Notes: generated from the sequence alone by a model not told the origin. Counted from the stretch's first letter, positions 30,315-56,360 are shown. The stretch: DNA of 64,000 bases from Candidatus Aquabacterium excrementipullorum (GCA_019112875.1 DXIO01000014.1:69301-133300), one strand, 5' to 3'. Made by a program: numbers and translations.

Positions 30315-30410
30315 AGTCAGTCGGCCCTGAAGTGCGGGTCAGCCATGCCTGACGGGCTGGCAAGGCCGATGTCAGCGCTTCTTGACACGCCCTGTCGGCA
30401 GGCGCCGATA
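30315..30410. promoter_or_regulatory. Four tandem palindromic boxes between the divergent PA2169-family and cls genes
   Basis: AGTCAG-N6-CTGAAG 30315, GGTCAG-N6-CTGACG 30337, TGTCAG-N6-TTGACA 30370, TGTCGG-N6-CCGATA 30393; -10-like TACGCT (minus, 30288-30293) and CACAAT (plus, 30432-30437). Confidence 0.7.
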
Positions 30411-30470
30411 GCCCGGCGGCCGGGCGCTGTACACAATAGGCCATCTGGATTGCGCGGACCGAGGTGTGGC

Positions 30471-31979
30471 GTGAGCCCTCAATCACAACAAGGACGAGTG
30501 CCGAGGAGACCCCATGAGCGATGCGACACCGAAGGTGCCCCACGCCCCCGTGCGCGGCCTGCTGCCCACATGCTGAGCTGCACGCTGGGTCTGGCCGCCC
30601 TGCTGGCGGGCTGTGGCTCGCTGGAGCCGCGGCGCCAGCCGGTCGTCGCCGACACCGTGGTGAGCAACGTACAGCTGGCGAGCCGGCTGCAGGTGGCCAC
30701 GGCCAACGACGACCTGCGGCGCCGCGAGCGCACCAACCTGATCGGGCAGCTGCAGTCCGAAGGGCGGCCTGACCTGGTCAAGCGCCACCTGGCCGCGATG
30801 ACCGCGCAGGAGCGTGTCCGGCTGGTGGCCGACAACGAGGTGCATCTGCTGGTGGACGGCCCCCAGACCTTCGCGGCCATGTTCAAGTCGCTGGAGGCGG
30901 CGCGGCGCTCGATCTGGCTGGAGAGCTACATCATCGAGGACGCCGACATCGCCGTGCGCCTGCGCGACCTGCTGATCCGCAAGCGCGCGCAGGGCGTGGA
31001 TGTGCGGGTGATCTACGACGCCGTGGGCTCCATCGGCACCTCGCGGGATTTCTTCCAGAGCCTGCGCGATGCCGGCGTGCACACCTGCGCCTTCAACCCC
31101 ATCAACCCGTTGAGCCGGCCCGGCTACTGGGGCATCAACCACCGGGACCATCGCAAGATCCTGGCCGTCGACGAGCAGCAGGCCTTCACGGGGGGCATCA
31201 ACATCTCCAAGGTCTACTCCTCGGGCTCGTCCTTCTTCAAGAAGCACAAGCCGCCCGAGGGCGAGGGCAAGGACAACGGCTGGCGCGACACGCAGGTGCA
31301 GATGGATGGCCCCGCGGCGGCCGAGATGGCCCGCATCGTGCGCCAGACCTGGGACGCGCAGGGCTGCAAGCCGGCCGTGGACCCGTCCATCGCGACGGGC
31401 AGCGATCCCAAGGGGGGCAAGAAGCGCGGTGACAAGGTCATGCAGGTGATCCCCAGCGGCCCCGATGAAAAGGGCATGGACACCTATGTGTCCCTGCTGA
31501 CGGCGCTGGACGCGGCGCAGCAGAGCATCCACATCACCATGGCCTACTTTTCGCCTGGCGAGGACATGGTGCAGGCCCTGTGCGATGCCGCGCAGCGGGG
31601 CGTGCAGGTGCAGCTGATCCTGCCGTCCATCAGCGATTTCAGCCCGGTGCTCTACGCCGGGCGCTCTTACTACGAGCGCCTGTTGCAGGCCGGCGTGAAG
31701 CTGTACGAACTGGACAGCGCCGTGCTCCATGCCAAGACGGCGGTGGTCGACGGGGTGTGGTCCACCGTGGGCTCCAGCAACATGGACTGGCGCAGCTTCG
31801 TGAGCAACAACGAGATCAACGTGGTGGTGCTGGGGCGCGACTTCGGGCAGGCGATGGAGGCGCAGTTTTCGCGTGACCTGGCCTCGTCCACCCCGATCGA
31901 GCCTGCGCAGTGGCCCAAGCGGCCGTTGATGGAAAAGCTCAAGGAGAAAGGCGCCCGCCTGTTCGAGCGCCTGATGTGA
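30471..31979 (+). CDS. Phospholipase D / cardiolipin synthase (ClsB-like)
   Basis: Two HKD motifs (HRKILAVD, HAKTAVVD), GSSNMD; LAGC lipobox-like segment; start is GTG 30471 (GAGG RBS) or ATG 30570. Confidence 0.88.
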   Translation: MSPQSQQGRVPRRPHERCDTEGAPRPRARPAAHMLSCTLGLAALLAGCGSLEPRRQPVVADTVVSNVQLASRLQVATANDDLRRRERTNLIGQLQSEGRPDLVKRHLAAMTAQERVRLVADNEVHLLVDGPQTFAAMFKSLEAARRSIWLESYIIEDADIAVRLRDLLIRKRAQGVDVRVIYDAVGSIGTSRDFFQSLRDAGVHTCAFNPINPLSRPGYWGINHRDHRKILAVDEQQAFTGGINISKVYSSGSSFFKKHKPPEGEGKDNGWRDTQVQMDGPAAAEMARIVRQTWDAQGCKPAVDPSIATGSDPKGGKKRGDKVMQVIPSGPDEKGMDTYVSLLTALDAAQQSIHITMAYFSPGEDMVQALCDAAQRGVQVQLILPSISDFSPVLYAGRSYYERLLQAGVKLYELDSAVLHAKTAVVDGVWSTVGSSNMDWRSFVSNNEINVVVLGRDFGQAMEAQFSRDLASSTPIEPAQWPKRPLMEKLKEKGARLFERLM

Positions 31980-32028
31980 TGAGTCGGTGAGGGGCAGGGC
32001 GCCGCGACGGCGTCCGCCCGTCCATGCC

Positions 32029-33159
32029 TCAGGCCATGATGGCCGAGTCGTGCACCGTGTCGTGCACGAAGCGCAGTTTCTGGCGCACCACCTCCGACAG
32101 GGCGAAGGGGTAGATGTCGTCCATGCCCATGCTGCGGTTCAGTGCATTGAGCGCCAGGCTCAGCGGCACCCAGCGCAGGATCAGCTGGTCGAAGTCGGGG
32201 CGCGTGTCACGCAGGATCTCTTCGCGCCGTGCCTTGCGGGCGGCTTTGCGGTCCTGGCCCGGCAGGCGCACGGAATCGGCGAAGTCATCGGCTGTTTCGA
32301 TCATGGCGCGCATGTGCATGTAGTGCGCCCAGGTCTCTGCCCAGCTCTCCCAGGGATGGGAGCTGGCGTAGGCGGAGATGTGTTCCTCGGCCCAGTCGGC
32401 CTGGGGCTGCTCGTAGTGGCGTTTGAGTGCCTCGCCATAGTCCTCGCGCTCGTCGCCGAAGAGTTCGCGGAAGGCATTGAGCCGCGCCTCCTGGGGCGCG
32501 ATGAGTTCGTCCCAGTAGAAGTGGCCGATCTCGTGGCGAAAGTGGCCAAGCACCGTGCGGTAGGGCTCGCCCAGTTGCTGGCGCGAGCGCACGCGTTCCA
32601 CATCGTCGGCTTCCGCCAGGTTGATCGTGATGTGACCGTGGTCGTGCCCGGTCATCACCTTGCAGCCCTGGTCAGGCAGGTTCTCCAGGAAGGAGAAGCG
32701 CAGCGGGTTGATGGTTTCGTGCTCGAACAGGGGCAGCCCCAGTTCACGCAGGTTGAACACCAGGCGGCGCTTGGCCGATTCCATCTTGTAGAGGGCGACG
32801 TGGCGCCCCTCCAAGGACAGGTTCGGAATGTCCCTTGTCAGCCGGCAGGATGCGCACAGCTCGTTGGGGTCACTGGCCTCGACGGCCCAGTTGCAGGTGT
32901 CTGTGCTCACGTAGTGGTGGCACAGGCGGTAGGCCGGGGCTTCCTCCTGGGGCAGGTCCGATGCGGCGGTGGCCTCGGGATCGATCGTGGCATCGGGCGA
33001 GGAGGGCGCCGCCACGCGCCACAGGCCATCGTCGCTGCGTTCCAGCGCGGCGACGCGGAACTGGTCGGGCAGAAAGGCCAGGGTATGGCCGCAGCCGACG
33101 CAGCGGGGGTTTTCGAAAAATACGGGGCTGTCGCAGTGGTCGCAGCGGAAAGTCCTCAT
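32029..33159 (-). CDS. Putative zinc-binding metallopeptidase with N-terminal zinc ribbon (DUF2248-like)
   Basis: CDHC...CVGC ribbon, CASC, TGHDHGHITI, GHFRHEIGHFYW (HExxH), SHPWESWAETWAHY. Confidence 0.82.
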   Translation of the reverse strand: MRTFRCDHCDSPVFFENPRCVGCGHTLAFLPDQFRVAALERSDDGLWRVAAPSSPDATIDPEATAASDLPQEEAPAYRLCHHYVSTDTCNWAVEASDPNELCASCRLTRDIPNLSLEGRHVALYKMESAKRRLVFNLRELGLPLFEHETINPLRFSFLENLPDQGCKVMTGHDHGHITINLAEADDVERVRSRQQLGEPYRTVLGHFRHEIGHFYWDELIAPQEARLNAFRELFGDEREDYGEALKRHYEQPQADWAEEHISAYASSHPWESWAETWAHYMHMRAMIETADDFADSVRLPGQDRKAARKARREEILRDTRPDFDQLILRWVPLSLALNALNRSMGMDDIYPFALSEVVRQKLRFVHDTVHDSAIMA

Positions 33160-33201
33160 GGGGTCCTCTTGTCGGGCGCCTCCACGGCCGGGCTCCTGCT
33201 G

Positions 33202-33555
33202 TCAGGCGGCGGGTGTCAACCCGGCCAGGAGCTTCTGAAGTTCATCCACATCGAAAGGTTTGGACAGGATGTGCACGCGCTCGGGCAGGTGAGGGCGGTA
33301 CATCTCGGCGCGGTGGCCCGTCAGCAGCAGGCCGTGCAACTGGGTGTTGTGCGCCATCACCTGGCGCATCAGTTCCAGGCCCGACATGCCGGGCAGTTCC
33401 AGGTCACTGATGAGCAGGTCGACGTTGTCGGCCTGCAGGGCCTCGCTTCCAGCTTCCGCGCTGTCGAATGCCCGCACATCGTGCCCCCACGATTGCAGCA
33501 GCAGTTCCACCATGTCCCTCACGTCGGGCGCGTCTTCGATGTAAATGATGTTCAT
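33202..33555 (-). CDS. Single-domain response regulator (REC only)
   Basis: IYIEDAPD, LISDLELPGMSG, LLTG, SKPF; no output domain. Confidence 0.88.
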   Translation of the reverse strand: MNIIYIEDAPDVRDMVELLLQSWGHDVRAFDSAEAGSEALQADNVDLLISDLELPGMSGLELMRQVMAHNTQLHGLLLTGHRAEMYRPHLPERVHILSKPFDVDELQKLLAGLTPAA

Positions 33556-33699
33556 CCGGTGTGGTTCAGGGCAGCAAAGAAAGCCAGAAATTCGGGAGCC
33601 AGCCACGGCGGCCGAGGGGGCGCCAGGCGTGCGAGGCGGTCATGGTATCCCATGCACCCCGCGCGTGGCAGACCGCCATGGCGAGTCCCCGGCGTTGGG

Positions 33700-34212
33700 T
33701 CAGGCCATCGCCGCCTGGTAGGCGTGATGGCGCGACAAGTCGTGGTCGGCGAAGCGCGTGGAAGTCGGCAGGGAACGTTCCAGCGAGCGGCGCAGCCGGT
33801 GCAGCATGGTCTCGCGCTGCTCCAGGTAGAACTCGCAGGCCAGGGCTTCGGCCTGCGGCGAAACACGCCACAGCGGCACCAGCATCTCCTCGGCCATCAA
33901 GGCGGCCTCGACTTTGGCGTGGACCACGTCGAACATCATGGCCCAGCTGTCATCGCTGGGGTTCATGGCGACCAGGCGGGGCAGGATGGCGTGGTAGCAC
34001 TCGCGTTCGGTGAAGCCGTGGTCCTCGGTCATGCTGCGGCCGCCCACCTCGGTGCGGCCCAGCGCGCTGTCGCGCGCCATCAGGAAGCACATCAGTTCGG
34101 CCAGGGCCTCGCGGCGCAGGTCAGGGTTGAGTTCGCCCATGCGCTTGATCGCATCCATGTACAGCCGCACGGTCGTGTGGTCGTCGGTCATCAGTCTGTG
34201 GAACTCACCCAT
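33700..34212 (-). CDS. Hemerythrin-like helical protein with degenerate metal ligands
   Basis: LMTDDH start, helical pattern and later AEE resemble HHE-type domains; GGAG RBS; family call is an inference. Confidence 0.55.
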   Translation of the reverse strand: MGEFHRLMTDDHTTVRLYMDAIKRMGELNPDLRREALAELMCFLMARDSALGRTEVGGRSMTEDHGFTERECYHAILPRLVAMNPSDDSWAMMFDVVHAKVEAALMAEEMLVPLWRVSPQAEALACEFYLEQRETMLHRLRRSLERSLPTSTRFADHDLSRHHAYQAAMA

Positions 34213-34232
34213 GTCGCACTCCAAGCTCTAGG

Positions 34233-34439
34233 TCAGGGGCGCTGGCCGCGCCCGGGTTTCTTGATCTGGTCCAAGCCGCGCATGCCGCGCAGATCGGTGT
34301 CTTGCTGGCCGGACTCGATGTCCTGGCGGGCCTGTTCGATGACGCCTTCCTGATCGGGTCCGACGTCGTGGTGGTCCTGATCGCGTTCATGGGGCAGCCG
34401 GGCTTCGGACGCGGAATGAGGGGCTTTGTTCTGCTTCAT
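34233..34439 (-). CDS. Small hydrophilic hypothetical protein (68 aa)
   Basis: GGAG RBS; fills the gap between BON and hemerythrin-like genes on the same strand; QARQDIESGQQDTDLRG. Confidence 0.6.
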   Translation of the reverse strand: MKQNKAPHSASEARLPHERDQDHHDVGPDQEGVIEQARQDIESGQQDTDLRGMRGLDQIKKPGRGQRP

Positions 34440-34557
34440 GGTGGTGTCTCTCCATGCAATGTTCGATCCTCATTCCGCGTCCGACGTCGCCATCTGGCCA
34501 AGGGAGTCGGCACGGGCCGCTTGGATCTCCCCTGCCAGGTGGATCCTGGCGTGCGCG

Positions 34558-35070
34558 TCAGGAGGTCTTGTCGACCGTCAGACGGTTGACCACATTGGTC
34601 ACGCCACTGACGGCCTGGGCCAGCTCGGAGGCGCGGCCCAGCGATTGGACGTCGGGGGCCACGCCGGTCAGGGTGACCTGGCCATCCTTCGTGTCCACGT
34701 TGATCTTGGTGGCCTTGAGCTTGTCGTCGGCGGCCAGCGCGGCGTTCACCTTGGTGGTGATGGTGGCGTCGGACACACCGGACTTGATCTTCTGGCCCAA
34801 CGCGTCCGCCTTGGCGCTGGCGCTGGCCGAGGCATCGGCCGACGCGTTCTTGGCGTCGTTCAAGGCGACCTGGGTGTCGGCCTTCAACTCGGCGGCGTCC
34901 TTGCGGGCCTCGGTGGCGGCGTTGTCGGCGGCGCTGGAAGCACTGGCGATGGCGCTGTCGAGTTGCTGGCCGGCCGTGCGTTCGTCGTGGCGGTTGCAGC
35001 CGCTCAGGGCCACGGTGCCCAGGAGGGCCAGGGTGGCGGGAACGATCAGGCGTTGTTTGAAGGTGTTCAT
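34558..35070 (-). CDS. BON-domain (OsmY-like) lipoprotein
   Basis: Lipobox ALSGC, Ala-rich helical linker, SDATITTKVNAAL...INVDTKDGQVTLTG...VTNVVNRL; AGGAG RBS. Confidence 0.9.
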   Translation of the reverse strand: MNTFKQRLIVPATLALLGTVALSGCNRHDERTAGQQLDSAIASASSAADNAATEARKDAAELKADTQVALNDAKNASADASASASAKADALGQKIKSGVSDATITTKVNAALAADDKLKATKINVDTKDGQVTLTGVAPDVQSLGRASELAQAVSGVTNVVNRLTVDKTS

Positions 35071-35164
35071 TGCTGTTCTCCTGTTCTGTCGGGATCCGGA
35101 GGCAAGCCAGACCGGCCTCCGCATGGGTTGAACGATAAGAGCAGGGACCGCGGCCAACCAGTCA

Positions 35165-36670
35165 TCACAGGCCGATTCCCATGTCGGCGCATGCTGACAA
35201 TGGGGACGCAGGACGCATCGTGGCCTGCCCGGCCAACTGGGCGCGGGCATGGCCCAGGGCCGTGCGCACGGCCTCTTCGACCACGGGGTGGTAGATGGGA
35301 CAGTCCAGCAGGGTGTCCAGCGTCTGGCCCTGGTGCACGGCCCAGGCGAGCAGGTGGGCCAGGTGCTCGGCGCACGGGCCGATCATTTCCGCGCCGAGCA
35401 CCACGCGCCGTTGGCGGCACACGTAGACGCGAAGCGCGCCGCGGTTCATGTCCTTGATGCGGCTGCGTCCCTGGTCGGTGAAATCCGCCACGCCCACCAC
35501 GAAGGGATGAGCGACCTTGCTCAGATCTTCGTGTGAACGACCGAGCGCCGCGATCTGCGGATCACAGAACACGATGCGCAGGGGCGTGCGCCGCCCGCCT
35601 TCGAGGGGCGCTTCGGGCAGGTGGCTGGGGGGGCCGGGTTGCGCCACGGCCTGCGTGGCCGCGCGGCGGCCATCGAGCACGGCCTCGTGCAGCAGCGGGT
35701 GCGCGCCGCTGACATCGCCCGCGAGGAAGACGCAGCTGTCGCCCACGCGGGTGCTGCGATCCTGGTAGCCGGTGAGCTGTCCTTTGTCCAGCGTCAGGCC
35801 GCCCTGGGACAGGTCCAGGCCATCGAGCACGGGTTCGCGGCCGATGCACACCAGCACTCGTTCGACCACGGTGCTGCCGCGCTCGCCACCCACGTCGAAA
35901 TCCACGCGGGCCTGGCCGCCGTCGACCTCGGTCATGCCGCGCACATTGGCTCGCGTGATCAAGGTGATGCCTTCGGACAGCAGGGGAATCGCCAGCGGTC
36001 GCAGGGCAGGATCCTTCAGCCCGCCAGGCGCCTCTTCGCGCATGAGCCACACCACGCGAACGCCCAGCCGGTTGAGGGCCTGGGCCATCTCCGTGCCGAT
36101 GGCGCCCCCGCCGATCACGGCGATGGAGCGGGGCAGGGTGGGCAATTCGAACAGGGTGTCGGTGGTGAGCAGTTGACCCCCGAGTGCAGCCCGCCAGGCC
36201 TCGGGCACGACGGGACGTGATCCCGTGGCCAGCACGATGCTGCGGGCTTTCACGGTCGCATGCTCGTCCACCTGCAGCATGCAAGGCCCGATGAAGCGGG
36301 CCCGGCCTGCCAGCCGGTGCGCGGCGGGCCAGGCTTCGGCCTCGCGCACGACGCTGTCGACGAAATCGTCGCGCAATTCGCGCAGGCGGGCCATCACGGC
36401 GGCACCGTCGACCTGCGCACCCACGGCCTTGATGCCCAGGCGGTGAGCCTGGCGGATCGCGTGGGCACGGCTGGCTGCCTCGATCAGCAATTTGCTGGGC
36501 ATGCAGCCCGCGCGTGCGCACAGCGTGCCGTAGCCGCTGGACTCGATGAGCACCAGGCGCGACGTCTGTCGCGCAGCGGCCTTGTAAGCCGCCATGCCGG
36601 CCGATCCCGCCCCCACGATGGCCAGGTCGACATCCAGATGCTTGAGCCCTTGCTTGAGGGCGGCGGCCAC
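35165..36670 (-). CDS. Class I pyridine nucleotide-disulfide oxidoreductase (dihydrolipoyl dehydrogenase-like)
   Basis: IVGAGSAG FAD site, redox-active CARAGC, IGGGAIGTE, FLAGDV, YHPVVEE; GTG start just after the DUF3309 stop. Confidence 0.85.
   Translation of the reverse strand: MAAALKQGLKHLDVDLAIVGAGSAGMAAYKAAARQTSRLVLIESSGYGTLCARAGCMPSKLLIEAASRAHAIRQAHRLGIKAVGAQVDGAAVMARLRELRDDFVDSVVREAEAWPAAHRLAGRARFIGPCMLQVDEHATVKARSIVLATGSRPVVPEAWRAALGGQLLTTDTLFELPTLPRSIAVIGGGAIGTEMAQALNRLGVRVVWLMREEAPGGLKDPALRPLAIPLLSEGITLITRANVRGMTEVDGGQARVDFDVGGERGSTVVERVLVCIGREPVLDGLDLSQGGLTLDKGQLTGYQDRSTRVGDSCVFLAGDVSGAHPLLHEAVLDGRRAATQAVAQPGPPSHLPEAPLEGGRRTPLRIVFCDPQIAALGRSHEDLSKVAHPFVVGVADFTDQGRSRIKDMNRGALRVYVCRQRRVVLGAEMIGPCAEHLAHLLAWAVHQGQTLDTLLDCPIYHPVVEEAVRTALGHARAQLAGQATMRPASPLSACADMGIGL
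35182..35199. promoter_or_regulatory. Palindromic box upstream of the BON gene, embedded in the 3' end of the flavoprotein CDS
   Basis: TGTCGG-CGCATG-CTGACA; -10-like TATCGT on the minus strand (35132-35137) starts 45 nt away. Confidence 0.75.
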
Positions 36671-36672
36671 CG

Positions 36673-36831
36673 TCAGATGTGGCCCATCAGGACCAGGATC
36701 ACCAGGATCACCACCACCAGGCCCAGCCCGCCGGTCGGGCCGTAGCCCCAGTTTCGGCTGTGAGGCCAGGTGGGCAGGGCGCCGATGAGCATCAGCAGCA
36801 GCACGATCAGAAGGATGGTTCCCAGTGTCAT
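36673..36831 (-). CDS. DUF3309-family small membrane protein (52 aa, not in the ORF track)
   Basis: MTLGTILLIVLLLMLIGALPTWPHSRNWGYGPTGGLGLVVVILVILVLMGHI; GGAG RBS. Confidence 0.9.
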   Translation of the reverse strand: MTLGTILLIVLLLMLIGALPTWPHSRNWGYGPTGGLGLVVVILVILVLMGHI

Positions 36832-36911
36832 GGTGTTCTCCTCGTTGTCTTCGATGAGGCCACTGTAGGGAGTCGGTCACAGCGCTGGCATCAGCGGACA
36901 GCGCGATCGGA

Positions 36912-36959
36912 TGTAGGCCCTGACCTACCCGACAAAACACTTGTCGGCATCGGCCTACA
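36912..36959. promoter_or_regulatory. Tandem palindromic boxes (30-bp period) between the divergent DUF3309 and secreted-protein genes
   Basis: TGTAGG-CCCTGA-CCTACC 36912 and TGTCGG-CATCGG-CCTACA 36942; -10-like TACAGT on the minus strand (36862-36867) 45 nt away. Confidence 0.78.
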
Positions 36960-37116
36960 GACCTATCAGCGGATGCTGCCGCCAATGTCGGCGTGCGCCC
37001 CCATGCAGCGCTGTGGGGCGGCGGCGAAACTGCATGGCGTCACTTCAACGGCCTCGTCGCTGAGAGGCCACTGCCTGAAGTGCCTTGTTTGCGAAACGAA
37101 CCACACGGAGAACTCC

Positions 37117-37692: not shown

Positions 37693-37733
37693 GCTGACGC
37701 GACACTGCTCTTCGCTCTTTGGATTTTGAACGT

Positions 37734-37764
37734 GGGCGGCAGGCCTTTGGGGCCTGTCGCCCTT
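37734..37764 (+). terminator. Terminator-like hairpin after the secreted protein gene
   Basis: GGGCGGCAGGCC-TTTGG-GGCCTGTCGCCC 12-bp stem; weak U-tract. Confidence 0.55.
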
Positions 37765-37772
37765 GTCCGTCG

Positions 37773-41674: not shown

Positions 41675-41678
41675 CGCC

Positions 41679-44849
<3,171 letters not shown>

Positions 44850-47737: not shown

Positions 47738-47821
47738 CGCACACGCGCCATGCGCTGATGGCAACGCCGCCCCGACTGGCGCAATCTGGCCCCATCTTTT
47801 TTCCATACCCCAGGAGATGCC

Positions 47822-50406: not shown

Positions 50407-50433
50407 AAAGGCCGCCCAACCGGGCGGCCTTTT
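50406..50433. terminator. Perfect bidirectional intrinsic terminator
   Basis: AAAAGGCCGCCC-AACC-GGGCGGCCTTTT. Confidence 0.9.
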
Positions 50434-50473
50434 CATTTCTTCTTTCCTCGTCCTCGTCCTTGCCCGGCGCCCT

Positions 50474-50818
50474 TCAGGCCGTGTGCACGCGCATCAGCGG
50501 GGTCAGCACACCGTTGATGCGGGTGCGCACTTCCAGCCAGGGGTGCTTGCGATGGGCAAGGTGGCGACGCACCGCCTCGGCGGCGGCATGCATCAGGCCG
50601 CGGCGGGTGGGCTGGCCGCCGCGGCACAGGCCGCGCGGGATCACCAGGGCGATTTCCTGCGGCCGCTGGGGGCGATCGGCCACGGCCAGCATGCAGGGCA
50701 CCACCACCACCTTGTGATTGGCCAGGCTCACTTCCACATCATGGGTCTGTTCGTGGGGCTCCTCGGTATCGTCGGCGCTCAGGACATCGTCCAGCTCCTT
50801 GATGGTCACGATCTTCAT
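50474..50818 (-). CDS. Hypothetical protein (~114 aa)
   Basis: MKIVTIKELDDVL...; GAGG RBS; preceded by a palindromic box and -10-like TAGCAT. Confidence 0.6.
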   Translation of the reverse strand: MKIVTIKELDDVLSADDTEEPHEQTHDVEVSLANHKVVVVPCMLAVADRPQRPQEIALVIPRGLCRGGQPTRRGLMHAAAEAVRRHLAHRKHPWLEVRTRINGVLTPLMRVHTA

Positions 50819-50913
50819 GGCTTGTACCTCGTTATCGTTGTCGCGCTCTTTCAGCATGGGTCTCATGCTAGGCAGAGGCATGGAGCGCGTCTGTCGTCAA
50901 GGACTGTTTGCCA

Positions 50914-50992
50914 TGTAGGCATGGACCGACCCTGCTCGAGGGGTGCGGGGCATGGACTTTTCGGTCAACCAAGGCGTCGGCTCCGGCTGACA
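50914..50992. promoter_or_regulatory. Two palindromic boxes between the divergent hypothetical and DUF1328 genes
   Basis: TGTAGG-CATGGA-CCGACC 50914 and CGTCGG-CTCCGG-CTGACA 50975; -10-like TAGCAT (minus, 50865-50870) 44 nt from 50914. Confidence 0.75.
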
Positions 50993-51113
50993 CGGGGATC
51001 AGCCGCTGCTGGCGCTGGCCGGCGTTGGTCGCCGACTGCCGCGGTGCCTGGTGGGCGGCAGCATCCTTGCATGGCCGCCGGTCTTCGTGGCGACCCCAAG
51101 AAAGGACCTGATC

Positions 51114-51290
51114 ATGTTGAAATGGGCTCTGATATTCGCGCTGATCGCCGTCGTGGCCGGTCTGCTGGGCTTCACGGGCGTGGCGGCGGGCGCAGCCTCG
51201 ATCGCCAAGGTGCTGTTCGGGATCTTCCTGGTGCTGGCCCTGGTCGTGCTGCTACTGGGCGTTCTTGGCGTCAAGGCGTTCAGCCGCTGA
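51114..51290 (+). CDS. DUF1328 (YtjA-like) small membrane protein
   Basis: [38 protein letters not shown]; AAGGA RBS. Confidence 0.9.
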
Positions 51291-51941
51291 CGATGCCGCC
51301 GCCGCTGCGGCCGCCCGCCGGGTGGGCAGCAGCGGCACCTCGCGGGACACGATGCCCGCGAGATCCTTCATCAAACCGGCCATGGCGTCGGTCTGGGCAG
51401 CGGCTCCCGAGCCGCTGCCCTTGCTTTGCAGAGGCTGGCTGCTGGTGCGAAGCACCTGGCCATCTTCACCCAGCAAGGTCCACTGTGCCCAGGCCGTGAG
51501 GTTCTGCGAAGCACGGTCGTAATCCAGGGGCGAGAGGCTCACCAGCAGCCGTACGGGCCGGCGCGACGCGCCTTCGCAGCGCAGCGGGCACAGCTGCCAC
51601 GGCGTCGGCAGCGCATGTTCCAGCTCAATGGACAGGTTGCGCGTGAGCCCCACCTCCACGCGTTCAGCCCACACCGTGTCCTCCCAGGATTTGAGTTCGC
51701 TGCCCTCGCGGTAACGCACCGAGCGCGATTGCCAGTATTCCGGAATGTCCAGCCGGCCCAGCTGCAGCCAGCGCGTGCCGGCATTGCCAGCGCTGGCGGA
51801 GGCCTGCGGCAGGGAAGGCGTGGGCAGCGCGAGCACGGTCTGGGGCGGCGGGCTGCTCGCGCAGCCAGCAAGCAGTGCGGCCAGCGTGAGTGTCAAGGTG
51901 CCGGCCCAGCAGGCGGGGCGGGTGATCTGGCGGATGGGCAT
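51252..51941 (-). CDS. PqiC-like ABC-transport auxiliary lipoprotein
   Basis: Lipobox LLAGC, IPEYW, WAERV; last gene of the MCE operon. Confidence 0.78.
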
Positions 51942-51952
51942 GGGGTGTCTCC

Positions 51953-52912
51953 TCAGCGGCGCCCGAAGATCAGGGCGTTGGGCTGGTTCTCCAGCAGTTC
52001 GGCCACCTGGCGCAGGCTGCGCGCCGTCAGCGACAGATCGCGCAGGGTGGATTCCAGGTCTTCACGCGGGGCAGAGCCCGGCGCCGACAGTTCGGCGAAG
52101 GATTGCATGCTCACCTCGACAGAGCGCGCGGCGTCCCGGGCGGATGCCAGGGTGAGCGCCACGTCTGGCTGGGTGGCTGCCACCAGGTTGTTGGTCGTGT
52201 CCGACAGGCGCTGCACGGATTGCAGCGTGCCATTGGCCTGCTGTCCCACCGATTGCAGCGTGCGGTCGGTGTTGCGCATGATCTCCTGCGCGGCCAGCGA
52301 GGCCTGGCGCCAGTCTTCACCGGCCTGCTTCATCACTTTCTGCGCGGCCACGGAGGTCTGCTGCAGTTCACCCAGCGTGCGGCGCAGGTCGCCCACCGTG
52401 TCCTTGAGCGGCAGCTCGCTGATTTGGGCCACCAGGTCGTCGAACGCCCCCTTGACCACGGGAATCTCCACGCTGCGGCTTTCCGGATCGCCATGCAGGG
52501 CCAGCGGTGACTTGGGATCGAAATCCAGGTCGATCAGGGCCTGGCCCGTGACCAGGCTCTGCTGCGCCAGCCGGGCTCGCAGGCCGCGCTGCACCAGCTG
52601 GCGAAGGTCCATGTTGTCCTGGCCTCCGCTCATCTGCAGCAGCTTGGAGGTGATGAACAGTTGCACCGGCACGCGTGTGACCAAGTTGTTCGGATCGACC
52701 TCGATGCCGATGGCGTCCACCTGGCCGATGGGCACGCCCCGGAAGGTGACGGGGGCGCCCACGTACAGGCCCTTGACGCTGTTGGTGAAGTAGACGACCG
52801 CGCGCACGCGCTGTTCGAACAGGCGGTTGCCGCCCAGGAAGGTGATGGCCGCGGCCGCCAGGGCCAGCGCCGTCAGCACGAACAGGCCGATCAGCAGGGC
52901 ATTGCGTTTCAT
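51953..52912 (-). CDS. MCE-domain (MlaD-family) protein with helical C-terminus
   Basis: N-terminal TM, YFTNSVKGLYVGAPVTFRGVPIGQV, GLRARLAQQSLVTG, LENQPNALIFGR. Confidence 0.9.
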   Translation of the reverse strand: MKRNALLIGLFVLTALALAAAAITFLGGNRLFEQRVRAVVYFTNSVKGLYVGAPVTFRGVPIGQVDAIGIEVDPNNLVTRVPVQLFITSKLLQMSGGQDNMDLRQLVQRGLRARLAQQSLVTGQALIDLDFDPKSPLALHGDPESRSVEIPVVKGAFDDLVAQISELPLKDTVGDLRRTLGELQQTSVAAQKVMKQAGEDWRQASLAAQEIMRNTDRTLQSVGQQANGTLQSVQRLSDTTNNLVAATQPDVALTLASARDAARSVEVSMQSFAELSAPGSAPREDLESTLRDLSLTARSLRQVAELLENQPNALIFGRR

Positions 52913-53664
52913 GACGAAGGCTCCTGTCGCGCCAGGAAGGCGCGCACGGTGGGATGGGTGTCGGTGGCGCTTTTGAGATCAGCGGGTTTGCCGCGCGCGA
53001 TGGGGCGCTTGCTCTCGGCGTCCAGGAAGATGCCGTCGTCGGCGATGGACAGCAGGCTTTCGAGCTCGTGGCTCACGATCAGCACGGCGGCACCGGTGCG
53101 GTCGCGCAGGTCGGTGATGAGCTTGTCCAGCCGCACGGAACTGATCGGGTCCAGACCGGCGGAGGGCTCGTCGAAGAACAGGAAATCGGGCTCGCCGGCG
53201 ATGGCGCGGGCCAGGCCGGCGCGCTTCTTCATGCCGCCGCTGAGGTCAGAGGGGCGCTTGTCGGCAGCGTCTTCCATGCCCACCCATGAGAGCAGCTCCA
53301 GCGCGCGGTCGCGGCGTTCGGCCTTGGCCATGTCGGGCGATTTGAGCTCCAGCGGCACGATCACGTTGTCGAGCACGCTCATCGAGGTCCACAGCGCGGC
53401 ACTCTGGAACAGCACGCCGAAGCGCTGGCGGATCTGGCGCTGCTGCGCTTCGTTCGCGGCCCAGTAGTCCTCGTCGTCGATCAGCACCTGGCCTTCGTAA
53501 GGGCACAGCAGGCCGATCATGTGCTTGAGCAGGGTGCTCTTGCCGCAGCCACTGCCGCCCATGATGGCGAACACGGTGCCCGATTCCACCGAGAAGTCGA
53601 TGCCTTCCTGGATCAGCCTGTCGCCGAAGCGCATCGTGAGGTTCTTGACGTCCAGGCGGCTCAT
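52909..53664 (-). CDS. ABC transporter ATPase (MlaF-like)
   Basis: GGSGCGKST, LSGGMKKRAGLARA, FFDEPSAGLDP, VSHEL. Confidence 0.92.
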   Translation of the reverse strand: MSRLDVKNLTMRFGDRLIQEGIDFSVESGTVFAIMGGSGCGKSTLLKHMIGLLCPYEGQVLIDDEDYWAANEAQQRQIRQRFGVLFQSAALWTSMSVLDNVIVPLELKSPDMAKAERRDRALELLSWVGMEDAADKRPSDLSGGMKKRAGLARAIAGEPDFLFFDEPSAGLDPISSVRLDKLITDLRDRTGAAVLIVSHELESLLSIADDGIFLDAESKRPIARGKPADLKSATDTHPTVRAFLARQEPSS

Positions 53665-53668
53665 GGGC

Positions 53669-54469
53669 TCAGATGTCCAGTGCGTTGGCGCACACGGCGA
53701 AGATGGCGTCCAGCGCGATCACGCCCACGATGCCGGCCACCACGGCCTTGGTGGTGGCGCGGCCCACGCCAGCGGCGTCCCGGCTGGCTGTCATGCCGGC
53801 GTAGCAGCCGCCGATGGCGATCAGCACGCCGAAGACGACCGTCTTGCTCATGCCCAGGCCCACGTAGCTCAGCGGGCTGGCCAGCAGCGCACGGTCGAAA
53901 TAGGCCTGGGGGTTCAGATCGAGCATGGTGGTGCCCACGGCCATGCCGCCCAGCAGCGCGGCCACGCACCCGTACACGTAGAGCAAGGGCATCATCACCA
54001 GCAGGGCCAGCACGCGCGGCAGCACCAGGTAGCCGATGGGGTCGAGCCCGAGCACGCGCAGCGCGTCGATCTCTTCATTGGCCTGCATGGTGGCCAACTC
54101 GGCGGCGAAGGAGGCCGCGGTGCGCCCGGAGATCACCACGGCCGTGATGACGGCGGCCATCTCGCGCGTGACGGCGATGCTGACCAGGTCGGCCACGTAG
54201 ATGCCCGCGCCGAACTTCACCAGCTGCACCGCCCCCACGAAGGCCAGGATGGCCCCCACCAGCGCGTTGACCACCAGCACGATGGGCAGGGCCTGGGCGC
54301 TGGCCTCGTTGAGCACCCTGAGCAGGTCGGGCCGGCGAAACTGCCAGCCCTTGAGCGCCCGGCCACTGGCCAGCAGCACCTCTCCCAGGAAGGCCACGGG
54401 CAGCAGCCACGCGCTCAGGCGTGACTGCAGGCGAAGCTTGGTGGAAGAAGGGGCCGCCGGTTTGGGCAT
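53669..54469 (-). CDS. MlaE-family permease
   Basis: REMAAVITAVVISGRTAASFAAELATMQANEEIDALRVLGLDP, VLPR, GVGRATT. Confidence 0.92.
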   Translation of the reverse strand: MPKPAAPSSTKLRLQSRLSAWLLPVAFLGEVLLASGRALKGWQFRRPDLLRVLNEASAQALPIVLVVNALVGAILAFVGAVQLVKFGAGIYVADLVSIAVTREMAAVITAVVISGRTAASFAAELATMQANEEIDALRVLGLDPIGYLVLPRVLALLVMMPLLYVYGCVAALLGGMAVGTTMLDLNPQAYFDRALLASPLSYVGLGMSKTVVFGVLIAIGGCYAGMTASRDAAGVGRATTKAVVAGIVGVIALDAIFAVCANALDI

Positions 54470-54478
54470 GGCCCTATT

Positions 54479-55321
54479 TTAGAAGCGCAGGCGCAGGTAG
54501 ACGGCCGGGCCGTCGAGTTCCAGCCGCACACGGGCCGTGGCGGCGTCGTCCTTCTGCTTCAGGCGGATGCGGGTGGAGGCGTACTCCGCGCCGATACCGA
54601 CGTTCTTCCAGGGGAACCATTCGGCGCCGATGGCGGCGTTGGTGATGGTGCCCGACAGGTCGCTGCCGTTCTTGCGCACGCCCGACAGGTCGGCGTAGAG
54701 GCGCACCTGCTCGGACACCTTGGCACGCCAGCCCAGGGTCACCAGAGGGGCCCAGCCGGACTCGTCGTAGCGCTGGATGGTGTTGTAGCCGATGGGGCCC
54801 ACGCCCACCGATGCGCGCAGGGTGGCGTCGAGCTTGTAGTACGCCGCGCCCAGGCCCAGGCCGAACACGTTGTTGTTGCTCTGGTCACCGAACCACCAGC
54901 GGTACGAGAAGTTGCCGATGTCCAGCGTGGTGTCGGAGGCCACGCGGCCGGCGGCGGTGTAGTTCACGCCACCGAAGGTGAAGGGCTGCTCGATGCTGCG
55001 GGCGCTGTCGTCGTGGATGCGGAAGTAATCCACCGAGAAGCCCTGGCTGTCCATGATCAGCCAGTCGAGGCGGGCGCGCTCGACGGTCTTCTTGCCCGAC
55101 AGGAACTGTTGGTCCCCCGTGTCGATGTTGTTGGACGGGTCACGCACGGAGGCGAAACCGTCGATGTCGGCGCGGTAGCCGCCCAGCCAGATGCTGACAC
55201 GGTCCAGCGCCGGCGAGGGCTCGGCCCGCGCGACGCGCGGTGCCAGGCTCCACACGGCCGTGGCGGCGATGACAGCGGTGGTGAAGATGAATTTCTGATT
55301 TTTGTTCACGATAGGCCTCAT
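54479..55321 (-). CDS. Predicted outer-membrane beta-barrel protein of unknown family
   Basis: Signal peptide ending ARA, amphipathic beta strands, C-terminal YLRLRF beta-signal; ATG overlaps the ferritin-like stop (ATGA). Confidence 0.8.
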   Translation of the reverse strand: MRPIVNKNQKFIFTTAVIAATAVWSLAPRVARAEPSPALDRVSIWLGGYRADIDGFASVRDPSNNIDTGDQQFLSGKKTVERARLDWLIMDSQGFSVDYFRIHDDSARSIEQPFTFGGVNYTAAGRVASDTTLDIGNFSYRWWFGDQSNNNVFGLGLGAAYYKLDATLRASVGVGPIGYNTIQRYDESGWAPLVTLGWRAKVSEQVRLYADLSGVRKNGSDLSGTITNAAIGAEWFPWKNVGIGAEYASTRIRLKQKDDAATARVRLELDGPAVYLRLRF

Positions 55322-55896
55322 TCGAGCATGTCCTTGAGTTCGTCGGCGTGTTCCTCCTCGACGCTGAGGATGGACTCCAGCATGCGTCGGGTGGTCGGGT
55401 CTTTGTCGCCGATCAGGGCGACCATCTGTCGGTAACTTTCGATGGCCACGCGTTCGGCCACCAGGTTGGCACGCACCATGGCCTTGAGGTCCGTGGAGGT
55501 GTCGTAGTCGGCATGGCTGCGTTCCAGGATGCCGACCGGGTTGAAGTCCGGCTCGCCGCCCAGCTGGATGATGCGTTCGGCGATCTGGTCGGCATGGGCC
55601 GCTTCTTCGTTGGCGTGCACCATGAACTCTTCGGCGATCTTGGGCGAGGCCAGGCCGTGTGCCGTGAAGTGATGGCGCTTGTAGCGCAGCACGCACACCA
55701 GTTCGGTGGCCAGCGCGCCATTGAGCAGGCGCACGATCTCGTCGCGCCAGGGACCGTAGCTGGGCGTCACGGCACCTTCGTCGATGCCTTGGCGGGCCGC
55801 TTCGATGGCGTCCTCATCCAGGGTCAGCGAGTGGATGGCGTCGTTGGCCTGCGGTCGACCGCGCGGTGTGGACGGTTGGGTGGCTGGGTGAGACAT
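55318..55896 (-). CDS. Bacterioferritin-like / ferritin-like protein
   Basis: LATELVCVLRY, EEAAHADQIAERIIQLGGEP, AERVAI, EEEHADEL diiron ligands; AGGAG RBS. Confidence 0.88.
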   Translation of the reverse strand: MSHPATQPSTPRGRPQANDAIHSLTLDEDAIEAARQGIDEGAVTPSYGPWRDEIVRLLNGALATELVCVLRYKRHHFTAHGLASPKIAEEFMVHANEEAAHADQIAERIIQLGGEPDFNPVGILERSHADYDTSTDLKAMVRANLVAERVAIESYRQMVALIGDKDPTTRRMLESILSVEEEHADELKDMLE

Positions 55897-55999
55897 CTCA
55901 CGCTCCTGAAGGGCTGCTTGTCAGTGCCGGCAGGCCGGCGAAGTGCGGGATGGCGCGTCCGTGGGGACGGAAGGGTCGCGCCACCCCGCCGCTCATGTG

Positions 56000-56197
56000 T
56001 CAGTGGGTGGAGGTCCAGCTGTCCACTTGACGCTCGGCCTCATCCTTGGCGATGCCATAGCGTTCCTGGATGCGGCCGACCAGTTGCTCACGGCGGCCTT
56101 CGATCTTGTCGAAGTCGTCGTCGGTCAGCTCGCCCCACTGCTCCTGCACCTTGCCCTTGAGTTGCTTCCAATTGCCTTGCACGCGATCCCAGTTCAT
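56000..56197 (-). CDS. csbD: CsbD-family general stress protein
   Basis: MNWDRVQGNWKQLKGKVQEQWGELTDDD...GRIQERYG. Confidence 0.92.
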   Translation of the reverse strand: MNWDRVQGNWKQLKGKVQEQWGELTDDDFDKIEGRREQLVGRIQERYGIAKDEAERQVDSWTSTH

Positions 56198-56314
56198 GGC
56201 CTTGTCCTTTCGGTGGTGATTCGAGGGAAATTGCCCGCTGTGTGTCAGTTCGGGCAGTCGAATGCACTGTAGGAACGCGCCGTCGGGCCGTCTGTAGTCA
56301 AGTGATGAAGCTGG

Positions 56315-56360
56315 CGTCAGCAAGCGCTGACGTCTCGTTACGCGTCAGATGCGGCTGACA
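56315..56360. promoter_or_regulatory. Tandem palindromic boxes (28-bp period) between the divergent csbD and hypothetical genes
   Basis: CGTCAG-CAAGCG-CTGACG 56315 and CGTCAG-ATGCGG-CTGACA 56343; -10-like TACAGT (minus, 56266-56271) 44 nt from 56315. Confidence 0.78.

What the first reader, a model, noticed from the sequence alone, without database searches (positions are those of the whole stretch)
30315..56360. Shared 18-bp palindromic operator defines a candidate new regulon
Seen: 12 sites match the core GT[AC][AG]G-N6-C[CT][GT]AC: 30337 GGTCAG/CTGACG, 35182 TGTCGG/CTGACA, 36912 TGTAGG/CCTACC, 36942 TGTCGG/CCTACA, 39000 TGTCAG/CTGACA, 45002 TGTAGG/CTGACA, 45032 TGTCAG/CCGACA, 47720 TGTCAG/CTGACG, 50914 TGTAGG/CCGACC, 50975 CGTCGG/CTGACA, 56315 CGTCAG/CTGACG, 56343 CGTCAG/CTGACA. 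One-mismatch copies lie at 30315, 30370 and 30393. All sit roughly 80-180 bp upstream of cluster genes, often as pairs 28-30 bp apart between divergent genes. My hand estimate, assuming about 68% GC and independent bases, is 1-2 chance hits per 64 kb. I saw none in intergenic regions of the flanks, but could not scan coding DNA exhaustively. Known: the 6-6-6 geometry matches the Pseudomonas GacA box TGTAAG-N6-CTTACA. Inference: a dimeric NarL/GacA-like activator controls the cluster. I do not recognise this motif as described for a betaproteobacterial stress regulon.
Basis: partly seen in the sequence, partly recalled or inferred. Interest (0 to 1): 0.92.

Follow-up and report, generated by a model that had tools for sequence, protein, structure and literature searches.

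The report
Conserved stress-regulon operator with GacA-like regulator
The repeated 18-bp palindrome is a genuine activator-binding site placed at a fixed distance from the promoters of about a dozen stress-protection operons, and its probable binder is a GacA-like two-component regulator encoded elsewhere in the genome and conserved with the same site across many Burkholderiales.

Summary
There are 12 exact GT[AC][AG]G-N6-C[CT][GT]AC sites in 26 kb, against 0.68 expected per 64 kb, and only 48 more in the other 4.7 Mb.

The sites are promoter elements. A TAnnnT (often CTAnnnT) hexamer starts 44-45 nt after the palindrome (12 of 120 oriented sites, 0.17 expected, P~4e-19). A degenerate second copy of the operator lies 23 bp downstream. 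The inferred centres are about -65.5 and -42.5, an activator layout.

More sites lie upstream of a catalase, a BON-DUF883-DUF1328-kinase operon, an OmpA-like gene and two sensor kinases.

The island has no DNA-binding gene. Of the genome's 23 LuxR/GerE-type genes, only one has operators in its own promoter: a NarL-family regulator on contig C130, next to a CHASE3-HisKA_3 kinase. Its closest curated family is UvrY/GacA, below the cut-off.

Around its orthologues in 80 named genomes (Cupriavidus, Ralstonia, Variovorax, Acidovorax and others), core sites number 91 against 19 in the control. 39 carry the -10 at the same offset, mostly upstream of the same gene families.

The genome lacks RpoS.

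Binding itself is untested. I rate this a new member of a known kind, possibly orthologous to Ralstonia VsrAD.

The parts
30337..30354 (.). Operator (exact core). Distal site of the DUF2383 promoter, which reads leftward.
30315..30332 (.). One-mismatch operator. Proximal (about -42) site of the DUF2383 promoter, 22 bp from the 30337 site.
30288..30293 (-). -10 hexamer cTACGCT of the DUF2383 (29757-30218, -) promoter, 44 nt after the operator.
   Evidence: gene
30370..30387 (.). One-mismatch operator. Distal site of the cardiolipin-synthase (cls) promoter, which reads rightward.
30393..30410 (.). One-mismatch operator. Proximal site of the cls promoter, 23 bp from the 30370 site.
30432..30437 (+). 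-10-like hexamer CACAAT of the cls (30515-31979, +) promoter at d45.
   Evidence: gene
35182..35199 (.). Operator upstream of the BON-domain gene (34558-35070, -). It overlaps the 3' end of the Pyr_redox gene. The -10 tTATCGT is at 35132-35137.
36912..36929 (.). Operator for the DUF3309 (36677-36831, -) / Pyr_redox operon. The -10 cTACAGT is at 36862-36867 and the proximal half-site CTGATG at 36889-36894.
36942..36959 (.). Operator facing the secreted Cys-repeat protein gene (about 37117-37692, +). No clear -10 at the canonical offset.
39000..39017 (.). Operator upstream of the lone receiver gene (38511-38918, -). It overlaps the stop codon of the REC-HK gene. The -10-like GACACT is at 38950-38955 and the proximal half-site CCGACA at 38977-38982.
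45002..45019 (.). Operator for the GAF-HisKA-HATPase-3xREC hybrid kinase / CheR / CheB / REC-HK operon (leftward). The -10 TAACAT is at 44952-44957.
45032..45049 (.). Operator for the endonuclease/exonuclease/phosphatase-family gene (rightward). The -10 tTAAGGT is at 45094-45099.
47720..47737 (.). Operator for the PNPOx-like (general stress protein 26-like) and AsmA genes (47822-50406, +). The -10-like CAATCT is at 47782-47787 and the proximal half-site CTGATG at 47755-47760.
50914..50931 (.). Operator for an unknown small gene (50474 to about 50818, -). The -10 cTAGCAT is at 50865-50870, which implies the ORF starts at the Met near 50818.
50975..50992 (.). Operator facing the DUF1328 gene (about 51129-51290, +). 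No canonical -10 at d44/45. A sigma54-like GGCAG-N5-TTGCA lies at 51056-51071.
56315..56332 (.). Operator for CsbD (56000-56198, -) and, probably, the downstream Dps / OMP / Mla-like transporter genes. The -10 cTACAGT is at 56266-56271 and the proximal half-site ACTACA at 56293-56298.
56343..56360 (.). Operator facing a single-TM protein gene (56463-56792, +). No canonical -10 at the standard offset.
29757..56792 (.). 27-kb stress/envelope island controlled by the operators. It encodes DUF2383, cardiolipin synthase, Peptidase_Mx, BON, Pyr_redox, DUF3309, two lone receivers, REC-HK, CheB, CheR, a GAF hybrid kinase, EEP, DUF1345, BrkB, PNPOx-like, AsmA, DUF1328, an Mla/PqiC-like transporter, Dps and CsbD. 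It contains no DNA-binding gene.

Best explanation
The palindrome TGT[C/A][A/G]G-N6-C[C/T][G/T]ACA is the high-affinity operator of a transcriptional activator that drives a general-stress-like regulon.

In the canonical promoter, the consensus operator is centred about 65 bp upstream of the inferred transcription start. A degenerate second copy (aTC[AG]G-N6-C[CT]GAt) is centred 23 bp downstream, at about -42.5, in place of a -35 box. A (C)TAnnnT -10 hexamer follows 21 nt later.

The most likely binder is the NarL/FixJ-family, GacA-like response regulator encoded at G000:C130:26358-26990. Two dimers would bind in tandem, and the proximal one would recruit the RpoD holoenzyme. The genome has no RpoS.

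The regulator is probably phosphorylated by the adjacent CHASE3-HisKA_3 kinase. The operator-controlled hybrid kinases, the CheR/CheB module and the lone receivers may also feed in, giving positive feedback.

Shown: the sites, their enrichment, the fixed promoter geometry, extension of the regulon to other loci, and conserved linkage of operator, regulator, kinase and the same stress gene families across the order.

Inferred: the identity of the binding protein, activation rather than repression, tandem-dimer binding, transcription start positions, and the signalling inputs.
For: Enrichment: 12 sites against 0.68 expected, and 12 of 60 genome-wide sites within 26 kb.

Fixed geometry: TAnnnT starts at d44/45 in 12 of 120 oriented genome sites against 0.17 expected, P=4e-19, with an echo at d66-68. 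In 9 of 19 promoters it is the only TAnnnT in 70 nt. The proximal half-site coordinates were verified.

Regulon beyond the island: high-scoring sites with the same layout lie upstream of a catalase (C104), a BON-DUF883-DUF1328-CHASE3 kinase operon and a divergent Cache-PAS hybrid kinase (C130), an OmpA-like gene, and a PAS kinase (C80).

Regulator: there is no HTH gene in the island. Of 23 GerE genes, only the C130 regulator has operators in its promoter, a perfect palindrome at 26215 and a second site at 26147. Its best NCBIfam match is UvrY/SirA/GacA. It is 35% identical to E. coli UvrY and has a similar recognition helix. UvrY binds TGTAAG-N6-CTTACA (PMC4682653).

Conservation: in 20 loci from 5 families, the regulator is syntenic with the CHASE3 kinase in 20/20, together with Dps, DUF1328, BON, CsbD, the Cys-repeat protein and a lone REC. 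Strong sites lie nearby in 17/20. In 80 named genomes chosen only by regulator similarity, there were 91 core sites against 19 in the reversed control, 60/80 loci had at least one site, and 39 had a -10 at d44/45 against 2.0 at control offsets. 47 of 60 composites lie directly upstream of homologues of this genome's regulon genes. The recognition helix is invariant across families.

There is no RpoS in the genome.
Against: No binding, expression or transcription-start data exist.

Linkage of the regulator with the operator would also arise if the regulator were only a regulon member controlled by another protein.

The regulator scores below the GacA equivalog cut-off, so specificity cannot be transferred by orthology.

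Four window promoters (Cys-repeat, DUF1328, the TM protein, and partly cls) lack a good -10 at the canonical offset.

Genome-wide composite counts did not separate genomes with high- and low-scoring regulator homologues.

The 27-kb island itself is not syntenic in the two same-genus genomes that share its kinase module, so strict orthologous-promoter footprinting was not possible.
Confidence: 0.72

Rival explanations
1. The operator is real, but it is bound by a different transcription factor: another of the 22 GerE-type proteins, or an uncharacterised protein such as the 174-aa or 267-aa island ORFs. On this reading the C130 regulator/kinase pair is only a conserved member of the regulon.
For: The regulator's own promoter carries the operator, which is equally expected for a target gene. 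Several island ORFs have no family assignment.
Against: None of the other 22 GerE genes has a nearby operator. The unknown island ORFs are not conserved next to the operator in other genomes, whereas the regulator is present in all 20 fetched loci, with strong sites near it in 17 of them. The regulator's helix resembles UvrY's, and UvrY's known site has the same geometry and the same outer bases. No other HTH gene recurs in the conserved neighbourhood.
Confidence: 0.15
2. The palindrome is a repressor operator. The stress genes would be derepressed when the protein leaves the DNA.
For: Palindromic operators are typical of repressors. Sites lie between divergent genes, where a single repressor could silence both.
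Against: The sites lie upstream of the -10 element, not over it, at a constant 44-45 nt. The proximal copy sits where a -35 would be, and no canonical -35 is present. That is the layout of activator-dependent promoters. NarL-family regulators at about -42 typically activate (from general knowledge).
Confidence: 0.08
3. The sites are enhancer (UAS) elements for a sigma54-dependent activator.
For: The sites occur in pairs about 30 bp apart, 80-180 bp upstream of genes. One good GG-N10-GC promoter (CGGCAGCATCCTTGCA at 51056) lies downstream of site 50975.
Against: Only one of eight site-bearing regions has a sigma54-like promoter. No sigma54 activator gene is in the island or the conserved neighbourhood. 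A sigma70-type -10 is fixed at 44-45 nt.
Confidence: 0.03
4. The pattern is a chance or compositional artefact, or a mobile or structural repeat with no regulatory role.
For: The genome has high GC content, and GTCGGC/GCCGAC-like words are common.
Against: Zero of 100 shuffles reached 12 matches. The rest of the genome shows only the background density. The spacing to the -10 is fixed at P~4e-19. The element is conserved beside the same genes in distant genera whose spacer sequences are unrelated.
Confidence: 0.01

Closest known systems
UvrY/SirA/GacA response regulators and their 18-bp box TGTAAG-N6-CTTACA
   Same: The protein architecture is the same NarL-family REC+GerE. UvrY/SirA/GacA is the best-scoring curated family for the candidate regulator. 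It is 35% identical to E. coli UvrY and has a similar recognition helix, KTV(S/N)(T/S)YR. The operator has the same 6-6-6 inverted-repeat geometry and the same outer TGT...ACA.
   Different: The score is below the equivalog cut-off (170 against 280 bits). The partner kinase is CHASE3-HisKA_3, not a BarA/GacS hybrid. The inner half-site bases differ (C/A, A/G in place of A, A). The sites are promoter-proximal (about -65 and -42), not the far-upstream site (about -180) of csrB. The targets are protein-coding stress genes, and no Csr/Rsm sRNA was detected in the window.
DosR/DevR dormancy regulon of Mycobacterium tuberculosis (NarL-family regulator, 20-bp palindromic box, about 50 stress/dormancy genes)
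   Same: It works the same way: one NarL-family regulator activates a dispersed set of stress-survival operons through a palindromic box, often in tandem copies, and regulates itself. DevR is among the best PDB matches (3c3w).
   Different: The box sequence, sensor kinases, phylum and gene content are all unrelated. The comparison rests on my general knowledge of DosR and was not tested here beyond the PDB hit.
BvgA-activated promoters of Bordetella (a high-affinity inverted repeat upstream, with lower-affinity dimers stepping about 22 bp toward the -35)
   Same: Both have tandem sites 22-23 bp apart, a consensus distal palindrome, and a degenerate proximal copy abutting the -35 region.
   Different: The heptad sequence is different and the regulator is a different paralogue.
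VsrA/VsrD two-component system of Ralstonia solanacearum
   Same: Ralstonia species carry an orthologue of the regulator/kinase pair (L036, L066, L067, L072). VsrAD is reported as needed for hydrogen peroxide and cold tolerance, and VsrA's phospho-His is residue 258 (PMC11960443). The H-box His of the Ralstonia CHASE3 kinase orthologues is residue 256, and 258 in Cupriavidus. vsrD has an orthologue in Cupriavidus taiwanensis (PMC5995829).
   Different: Identity is not demonstrated, because no VsrA or VsrD sequence was available. The 1998 xpsR promoter paper (PMC107228) is not held. VsrAD is described as a virulence/EPS regulator, not as a general-stress regulator with a defined operator.
RpoS (sigma S) general stress regulon of gamma- and some beta-proteobacteria
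   Same: The gene content overlaps: catalase HPII type, Dps, OsmY/BON, CsbD, ElaB/DUF883, YqaE/DUF1328-like small proteins. Many of the -10 hexamers have a C at -13.
   Different: This genome has no RpoS. Control is through an activator-binding site, not an alternative sigma factor. The system also occurs in RpoS-positive relatives such as G330.

Membership tests
NarL/FixJ (LuxR-type HTH) response regulators | N-terminal receiver domain plus C-terminal GerE/LuxR-type helix-turn-helix | tested here: met
   There is a GerE hit at C130:26802-26966. Homologues carry PF00072+PF00196. Full-length matches to VraR, DevR, NarL and EvgA structures were found.
NarL/FixJ (LuxR-type HTH) response regulators | Cognate kinase with a HisKA_3 (NarX/DesK-type) dimerisation/phosphoacceptor domain | tested here: met
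   The adjacent kinase is CHASE3 + HisKA_3 + HATPase_c. It is syntenic with the regulator in 20/20 loci.
UvrY/SirA/GacA orthologue group (NF007018) | Score at or above the curated equivalog cut-off (280 bits) | tested here: not met
   170.4 bits. It is a paralogue, not a GacA orthologue.
UvrY/SirA/GacA orthologue group (NF007018) | Partner is a BarA/GacS-type tripartite hybrid kinase (HisKA-HATPase-REC-Hpt) | tested here: not met
   The conserved partner is a CHASE3-HisKA_3 kinase with no REC or Hpt domain.
UvrY/SirA/GacA orthologue group (NF007018) | Main direct targets are Csr/Rsm-family sRNA genes, with a far-upstream 18-bp box | tested here: not met
   No Rfam family was detected in the window. 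The boxes sit at a fixed 44-45 nt from the -10 of protein-coding genes.
UvrY/SirA/GacA orthologue group (NF007018) | 18-bp inverted repeat with 6-6-6 geometry, TGTAAG-N6-CTTACA | tested here: inconclusive
   The geometry and the outer TGT/ACA are shared. The inner bases differ: only 1 of 60 genome sites is GTAAG/CTTAC.
Activator-dependent (class II-like) sigma70 promoters | Activator site at a fixed position overlapping or abutting the -35 region, a weak or absent -35, and a recognisable -10 | tested here: met
   There is a fixed 44-45 nt offset to TAnnnT (P=4e-19). The proximal degenerate site ends 21 nt before the -10. Transcription starts themselves are not mapped.
Ralstonia VsrA/VsrD | Sequence orthology to the published VsrA and VsrD proteins | not testable with these tools
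   No VsrA or VsrD sequence or locus tag could be retrieved. There are only indirect agreements: the His position (256/258 against 258), the phenotypes, and the Cupriavidus orthologue.
RpoS-dependent promoters | An rpoS gene is present in the genome | tested here: not met
   The best TIGR02394 hit is RpoD, at 279.8 bits against a 378.7-bit cut-off. The same holds for another genome of the genus (G461).
Sigma54 enhancer-dependent promoters | A GG-N10-GC -24/-12 promoter downstream of each upstream activating sequence | tested here: not met
   Only 1 of 8 regions has one, at 51056.

The most novel reading that the evidence does not exclude
The CHASE3 kinase, the GacA-like regulator and this operator together form the master switch of a transcription-factor-based general stress response. 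It would be conserved across Burkholderiales and reach some Gammaproteobacteria, standing in for RpoS in lineages that lack it, such as this Aquabacterium-like genus. It would also integrate several hybrid kinases and a receptor-less CheR/CheB methylation module. That would make it a further paradigm of bacterial general stress control alongside sigma S, sigma B and EcfG/PhyR.
Probability: 0.35. Interest if true: 0.8.

Novelty: new member of a known kind. Interest (0 to 1): 0.6.

Why it matters
What controls general stress and desiccation genes in betaproteobacteria that lack RpoS is poorly defined.

This analysis gives a concrete, testable answer. It names an operator sequence, a promoter grammar (consensus site at about -65, weak site at about -42, -10 at a fixed offset), a candidate regulator/kinase pair, and a core regulon: catalase, Dps, BON/OsmY-like, CsbD, DUF883, DUF1328, DUF3309, cardiolipin synthase, an Mla-like transporter and lone receivers. 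All of these recur from Cupriavidus and Ralstonia to Acidovorax and Variovorax.

The motif can be used at once to annotate regulons in hundreds of environmental, biotechnological and plant-associated Burkholderiales. If the VsrAD link holds, it would give a long-known Ralstonia regulator its DNA site and direct targets.

Tried and rejected
1. Sigma54 enhancer hypothesis. A scan for TGGCAC-N5-TTGCA found one plausible promoter near the sites (51056) and none in the other seven regions. Rejected.

2. RpoS-type promoters. The CTAnnnT hexamers suggested sigma S, but the genome has no rpoS. RpoS is patchy in the family.

3. A regulator inside the island. Pfam and NCBIfam on all island ORFs found no DNA-binding domain. 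The AraC/RclR-like gene at 27298-28275 lies outside the site-bearing region and has no operator.

4. Phylogenetic profile from genome-wide composite counts against regulator score over 401 genomes. This was uninformative, because the reversed-pattern control is compositionally mismatched and often higher than the signal. I relied on local enrichment instead.

5. Footprinting of strictly orthologous island promoters in same-genus genomes. Only the GAF-HK/CheR/CheB/REC-HK module is shared, in G008 and G009, and the island is not syntenic.

6. Literature. Searches for the motif words, for CHASE3/Dps/general stress, for DUF1328/CsbD/DUF883 regulons and for RpoS-less betaproteobacteria found no description. 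The Vogesella TciKR paper is unrelated, since it concerns a REC-RsbW regulator.

7. VsrD identity. The PLSDB protein search returned only paralogues below 60% identity. The Dps paper (PMC2976212) and the xpsR paper (PMC107228, PubMed 9573161) are not held.

9. My first GC3-based ORF calls had wrong frames or starts for several genes (36993-37628, 45889-46659, 50474-50881). I corrected these.

Full report
OBSERVATION. The degenerate core GT[AC][AG]G-N6-C[CT][GT]AC occurs 12 times in the window, all between 30338 and 56359. Dinucleotide-preserving shuffles give 0.68 on average and never more than 3. I laid the whole assembly (4.75 Mb, 147 contigs; the window is C98:69301-133300) and counted 60 matches. 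48 lie outside this 26-kb stretch, about 0.65 per 64 kb, so the island is enriched roughly 45-fold. The three one-mismatch copies at 30315, 30370 and 30393 are present.

GENE CONTEXT. GC3-guided ORF calling followed by Pfam and NCBIfam shows a stress/envelope island. It encodes DUF2383, cardiolipin synthase, Peptidase_Mx, a lone receiver, a BON protein, a pyridine-nucleotide disulphide oxidoreductase, DUF3309, a secreted Cys-repeat protein, an H-box-containing 267-aa protein and a second lone receiver. It continues with REC-HisKA-HATPase, CheB, CheR, a GAF-HisKA-HATPase-3xREC hybrid kinase, an EEP-family enzyme, DUF1345, BrkB, a PNPOx-like protein, AsmA, DUF1328, an MlaEFD/PqiC-like transporter with an OMP, Dps and CsbD. 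No ORF in the island has a DNA-binding domain. The sites lie between divergent genes (three pairs 28-30 bp apart) or upstream of single operons. Two of them (35182, 39000) overlap the 3' end of the preceding gene.

PROMOTER GRAMMAR. An earlier first-reader note from this scan (e1-5232162) claimed a fixed 44-45 nt spacing to a -10-like hexamer. I tested that claim independently. I oriented each site toward its gene. In 9 of 19 promoters the only TAnnnT within 70 nt downstream starts exactly 44 or 45 nt after the 18-bp site, and four more have a near-match at that position. Over all 120 oriented core sites of the genome, 12 have TAnnnT at d44/45 against 0.17 expected (binomial P=4e-19). There is a smaller cluster at d66-68, one 22-23-bp register further out. 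Many of the hexamers are preceded by C (CTACAGT, CTACGCT, CTACGAT).

Between the operator and the -10 there is a degenerate second copy of the operator, aTC[AG]G-N6-C[CT]GA[TC]. Its right half (CTGATG, CCGACA, CTGACT, ACTACA and similar) ends 21 nt before the -10.

If the hexamer occupies -12 to -7, the consensus operator is centred near -65.5 and the weak copy near -42.5, and no canonical -35 is present. That is the layout of an activator-dependent promoter with two tandem dimers. In the divergent pairs, each site serves one of the two promoters.

REGULON BEYOND THE ISLAND. A symmetrised PWM scan of the genome, followed by local gene calls, found further high-scoring intergenic sites. These have the same third half-site and, except at the BON operon (see below), the same -10 offset:
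- 116 bp upstream of a catalase (C104).
- Upstream of a BON-DUF883-DUF1328-CHASE3/HisKA_3 kinase operon and its divergent Cache-PAS hybrid kinase (C130:30228). At the BON operon the consensus site lies one register further out.
- Upstream of an OmpA-like gene (C130:26147).
- Upstream of a PAS kinase (C80).
- Upstream of a membrane protein next to ergothioneine genes (C106), where the layout is shifted.
- At C3, C137, C103 and C65.
The regulon is therefore genome-wide and has a general-stress character.

THE REGULATOR. The genome has 23 GerE/LuxR-type HTH genes. I scanned 4 kb on each side of each one. Only C130:26358-26990 has operators in its own upstream region: a perfect palindrome TGTAGGGCATGACCTACA at 26215 and a second site at 26147. 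It is a REC+GerE response regulator. Its best curated family is UvrY/SirA/GacA, at 170 bits against a 280-bit equivalog cut-off. It is 35% identical to E. coli UvrY over its full length, and its recognition helix SKTVSTYRSR compares with UvrY's PKTVNSYRYR. ChIP-exo and footprinting showed that UvrY binds an 18-nt inverted repeat summarised as TGTAAGNNNNNNCTTACA (PMC4682653). That is the same 6-6-6 geometry with the same outer TGT/ACA. The adjacent kinase is CHASE3 + HisKA_3 + HATPase_c, the kinase class that pairs with NarL-type regulators.

CONSERVATION. The composite pattern (core plus TAnnnT at the fixed distance) turned up in several other families of the order with the same third half-site. 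The regulator's best homologue (46-56% identity) lay 0.5-3.5 kb from such hits in at least ten genomes.

I fetched 20-kb regions around it in 20 genomes of five families. The CHASE3 kinase is adjacent in 20/20. Dps, DUF1328, BON, CsbD, the Cys-repeat protein, Peptidase_Mx, AsmA and a lone receiver recur around it. Strong operator sites are present in 17/20. One example is G372: kinase(-), operator, Dps, regulator, lone REC. The recognition helix is invariant across these families.

As a test unbiased by the motif, I retrieved 80 named genomes by regulator similarity only. They include Cupriavidus, Ralstonia, Pandoraea, Variovorax, Acidovorax, Comamonas, Usitatibacter, Casimicrobiaceae and gammaproteobacterial Steroidobacteraceae. 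In 887 kb there are 91 core sites against 19 in the reversed-sequence control, and 60/80 loci have at least one. 39 oriented sites have TAnnnT at d44/45 against 2.0 at control offsets.

Across the 100 foreign loci, 47 of 60 composites lie directly upstream of a homologue of this genome's regulon or two-component genes: lone REC 17, DUF1328 12, BON 6, CHASE3 kinase 5, the regulator itself 3, Dps 2, Cys-repeat 2. The 27-kb island itself is not syntenic in relatives. Only its kinase/CheR/CheB module is shared with two same-genus genomes.

SIGMA FACTOR CONTEXT. The best hit to the rpoS model is RpoD, well below the cut-off. In a sample of the family, roughly 23 of 61 genomes have an RpoS-like gene, and this genus does not. 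The regulator/operator system also exists in RpoS-positive genomes such as G330. It is therefore not simply a replacement for RpoS, but in this organism it may be the main general-stress switch.

RELATION TO VsrAD. Ralstonia species carry the regulator/kinase pair next to Dps. The literature describes VsrAD as a sensor kinase/response regulator pair needed for hydrogen peroxide and cold tolerance, with VsrA's phospho-His at residue 258 (PMC11960443). vsrD has an orthologue in Cupriavidus taiwanensis (PMC5995829). The H-box His of the Ralstonia orthologues in my loci is residue 256 from the likely start, and 258 in Cupriavidus. This is suggestive only. I could not obtain VsrA or VsrD sequences or the xpsR promoter paper. 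I estimate about 0.6 that VsrAD is the Ralstonia member of this system.

MECHANISM. Under an envelope or stress signal sensed by the periplasmic CHASE3 domain, the kinase would phosphorylate the regulator. A dimer would occupy the consensus operator at about -65 and help a second dimer onto the weak copy at about -42. That second dimer would contact RNA polymerase carrying RpoD at promoters that lack a -35. Operators upstream of the regulator, its kinase, two hybrid kinases, the REC-HK and the lone receivers predict positive feedback and signal integration. What the CheR/CheB pair, the GAF hybrid kinase and the H-box protein do remains open. The sites, the geometry and the conservation are shown. 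Binding, the direction of regulation, transcription starts and phosphotransfer are inferred.

COMPARISON AND NOVELTY. The system works like other NarL-family stress regulons. DosR is the closest analogy in logic, BvgA in tandem-site geometry (both from memory), and UvrY/GacA in half-site and helix. It fails the membership tests for a GacA orthologue on score, partner kinase, target type and site position. I found no description of the motif or regulon in the searchable library, which is incomplete. I rate it a new member of a known kind. The regulator/operator class is ordinary. The specific operator, its promoter grammar and a stress regulon conserved across the order appear undescribed.

LIMITS. 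There are no expression or binding data. Gene calls are my own, not curated. Four island promoters do not fit the canonical -10 offset.

Noticed in passing
window 51056-51071 (+): There is a good sigma54-type promoter match (CGGCAGCATCCTTGCA, i.e. GG-N10-GC) about 65 bp downstream of operator 50975 and upstream of the DUF1328 gene. It is the only such match near any operator, so this promoter may be controlled differently.
   Followed up: partly
window 37719-38522 (+), convergent with the lone receiver at 38511-38918: A 267-aa ORF has no Pfam or NCBIfam hit but carries an H-box-like MRHDLMNQL. It may be a ChpT-like phosphotransferase linking the hybrid kinases to the receivers.
   Followed up: no
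window 40152-44906 (-): CheR and a receiver-less CheB sit in an operon with a GAF-HisKA-HATPase-3xREC kinase and a REC-HK. There is no MCP, CheA or CheW. A paralogous CheR module (62% identity) is at G000:C67:658-1473, and the module alone is shared with G008 and G009.
   Followed up: partly
G008:C5 (97,854 bp), both contig ends: In this same-genus genome the regulator orthologue is split across the two ends of the contig: residues 12-116 at 6-320 and residues 119-221 at 97545-97853, on the same strand. The contig may therefore be a circular element of about 98 kb, carrying the regulator, the CHASE3 kinase, DUF1328 and the CheR/CheB kinase module.
   Followed up: no
window 50474-50881 (-): The predicted -10 at 50865-50870 lies inside the longest ORF. 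The real start is therefore probably the Met near 50818 (MKIVTIKEL...), giving a protein of about 114 aa with no family assignment.
   Followed up: partly
window 27298-29656: The left flank holds a Cupin_6/AraC (RclR-like) regulator divergent from a fatty-acid desaturase. It has no operator, so it marks the island's left boundary.
   Followed up: no
G000 genome-wide, d66-68 after core sites: There is a secondary peak of TAnnnT at 66-68 nt after the operator (6 cases). This fits promoters in which the consensus site sits one 22-23-bp register further upstream (about -88), as at C106:35182 and C130:30228.
   Followed up: partly
L065, L074, L075, L082, L086, L095, L120: Regulator orthologues (51-55% identity) occur in Steroidobacteraceae MAGs (Gammaproteobacteria). 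At least L075 and L120 have the operator/-10 composites, so the system is not confined to Burkholderiales.
   Followed up: partly
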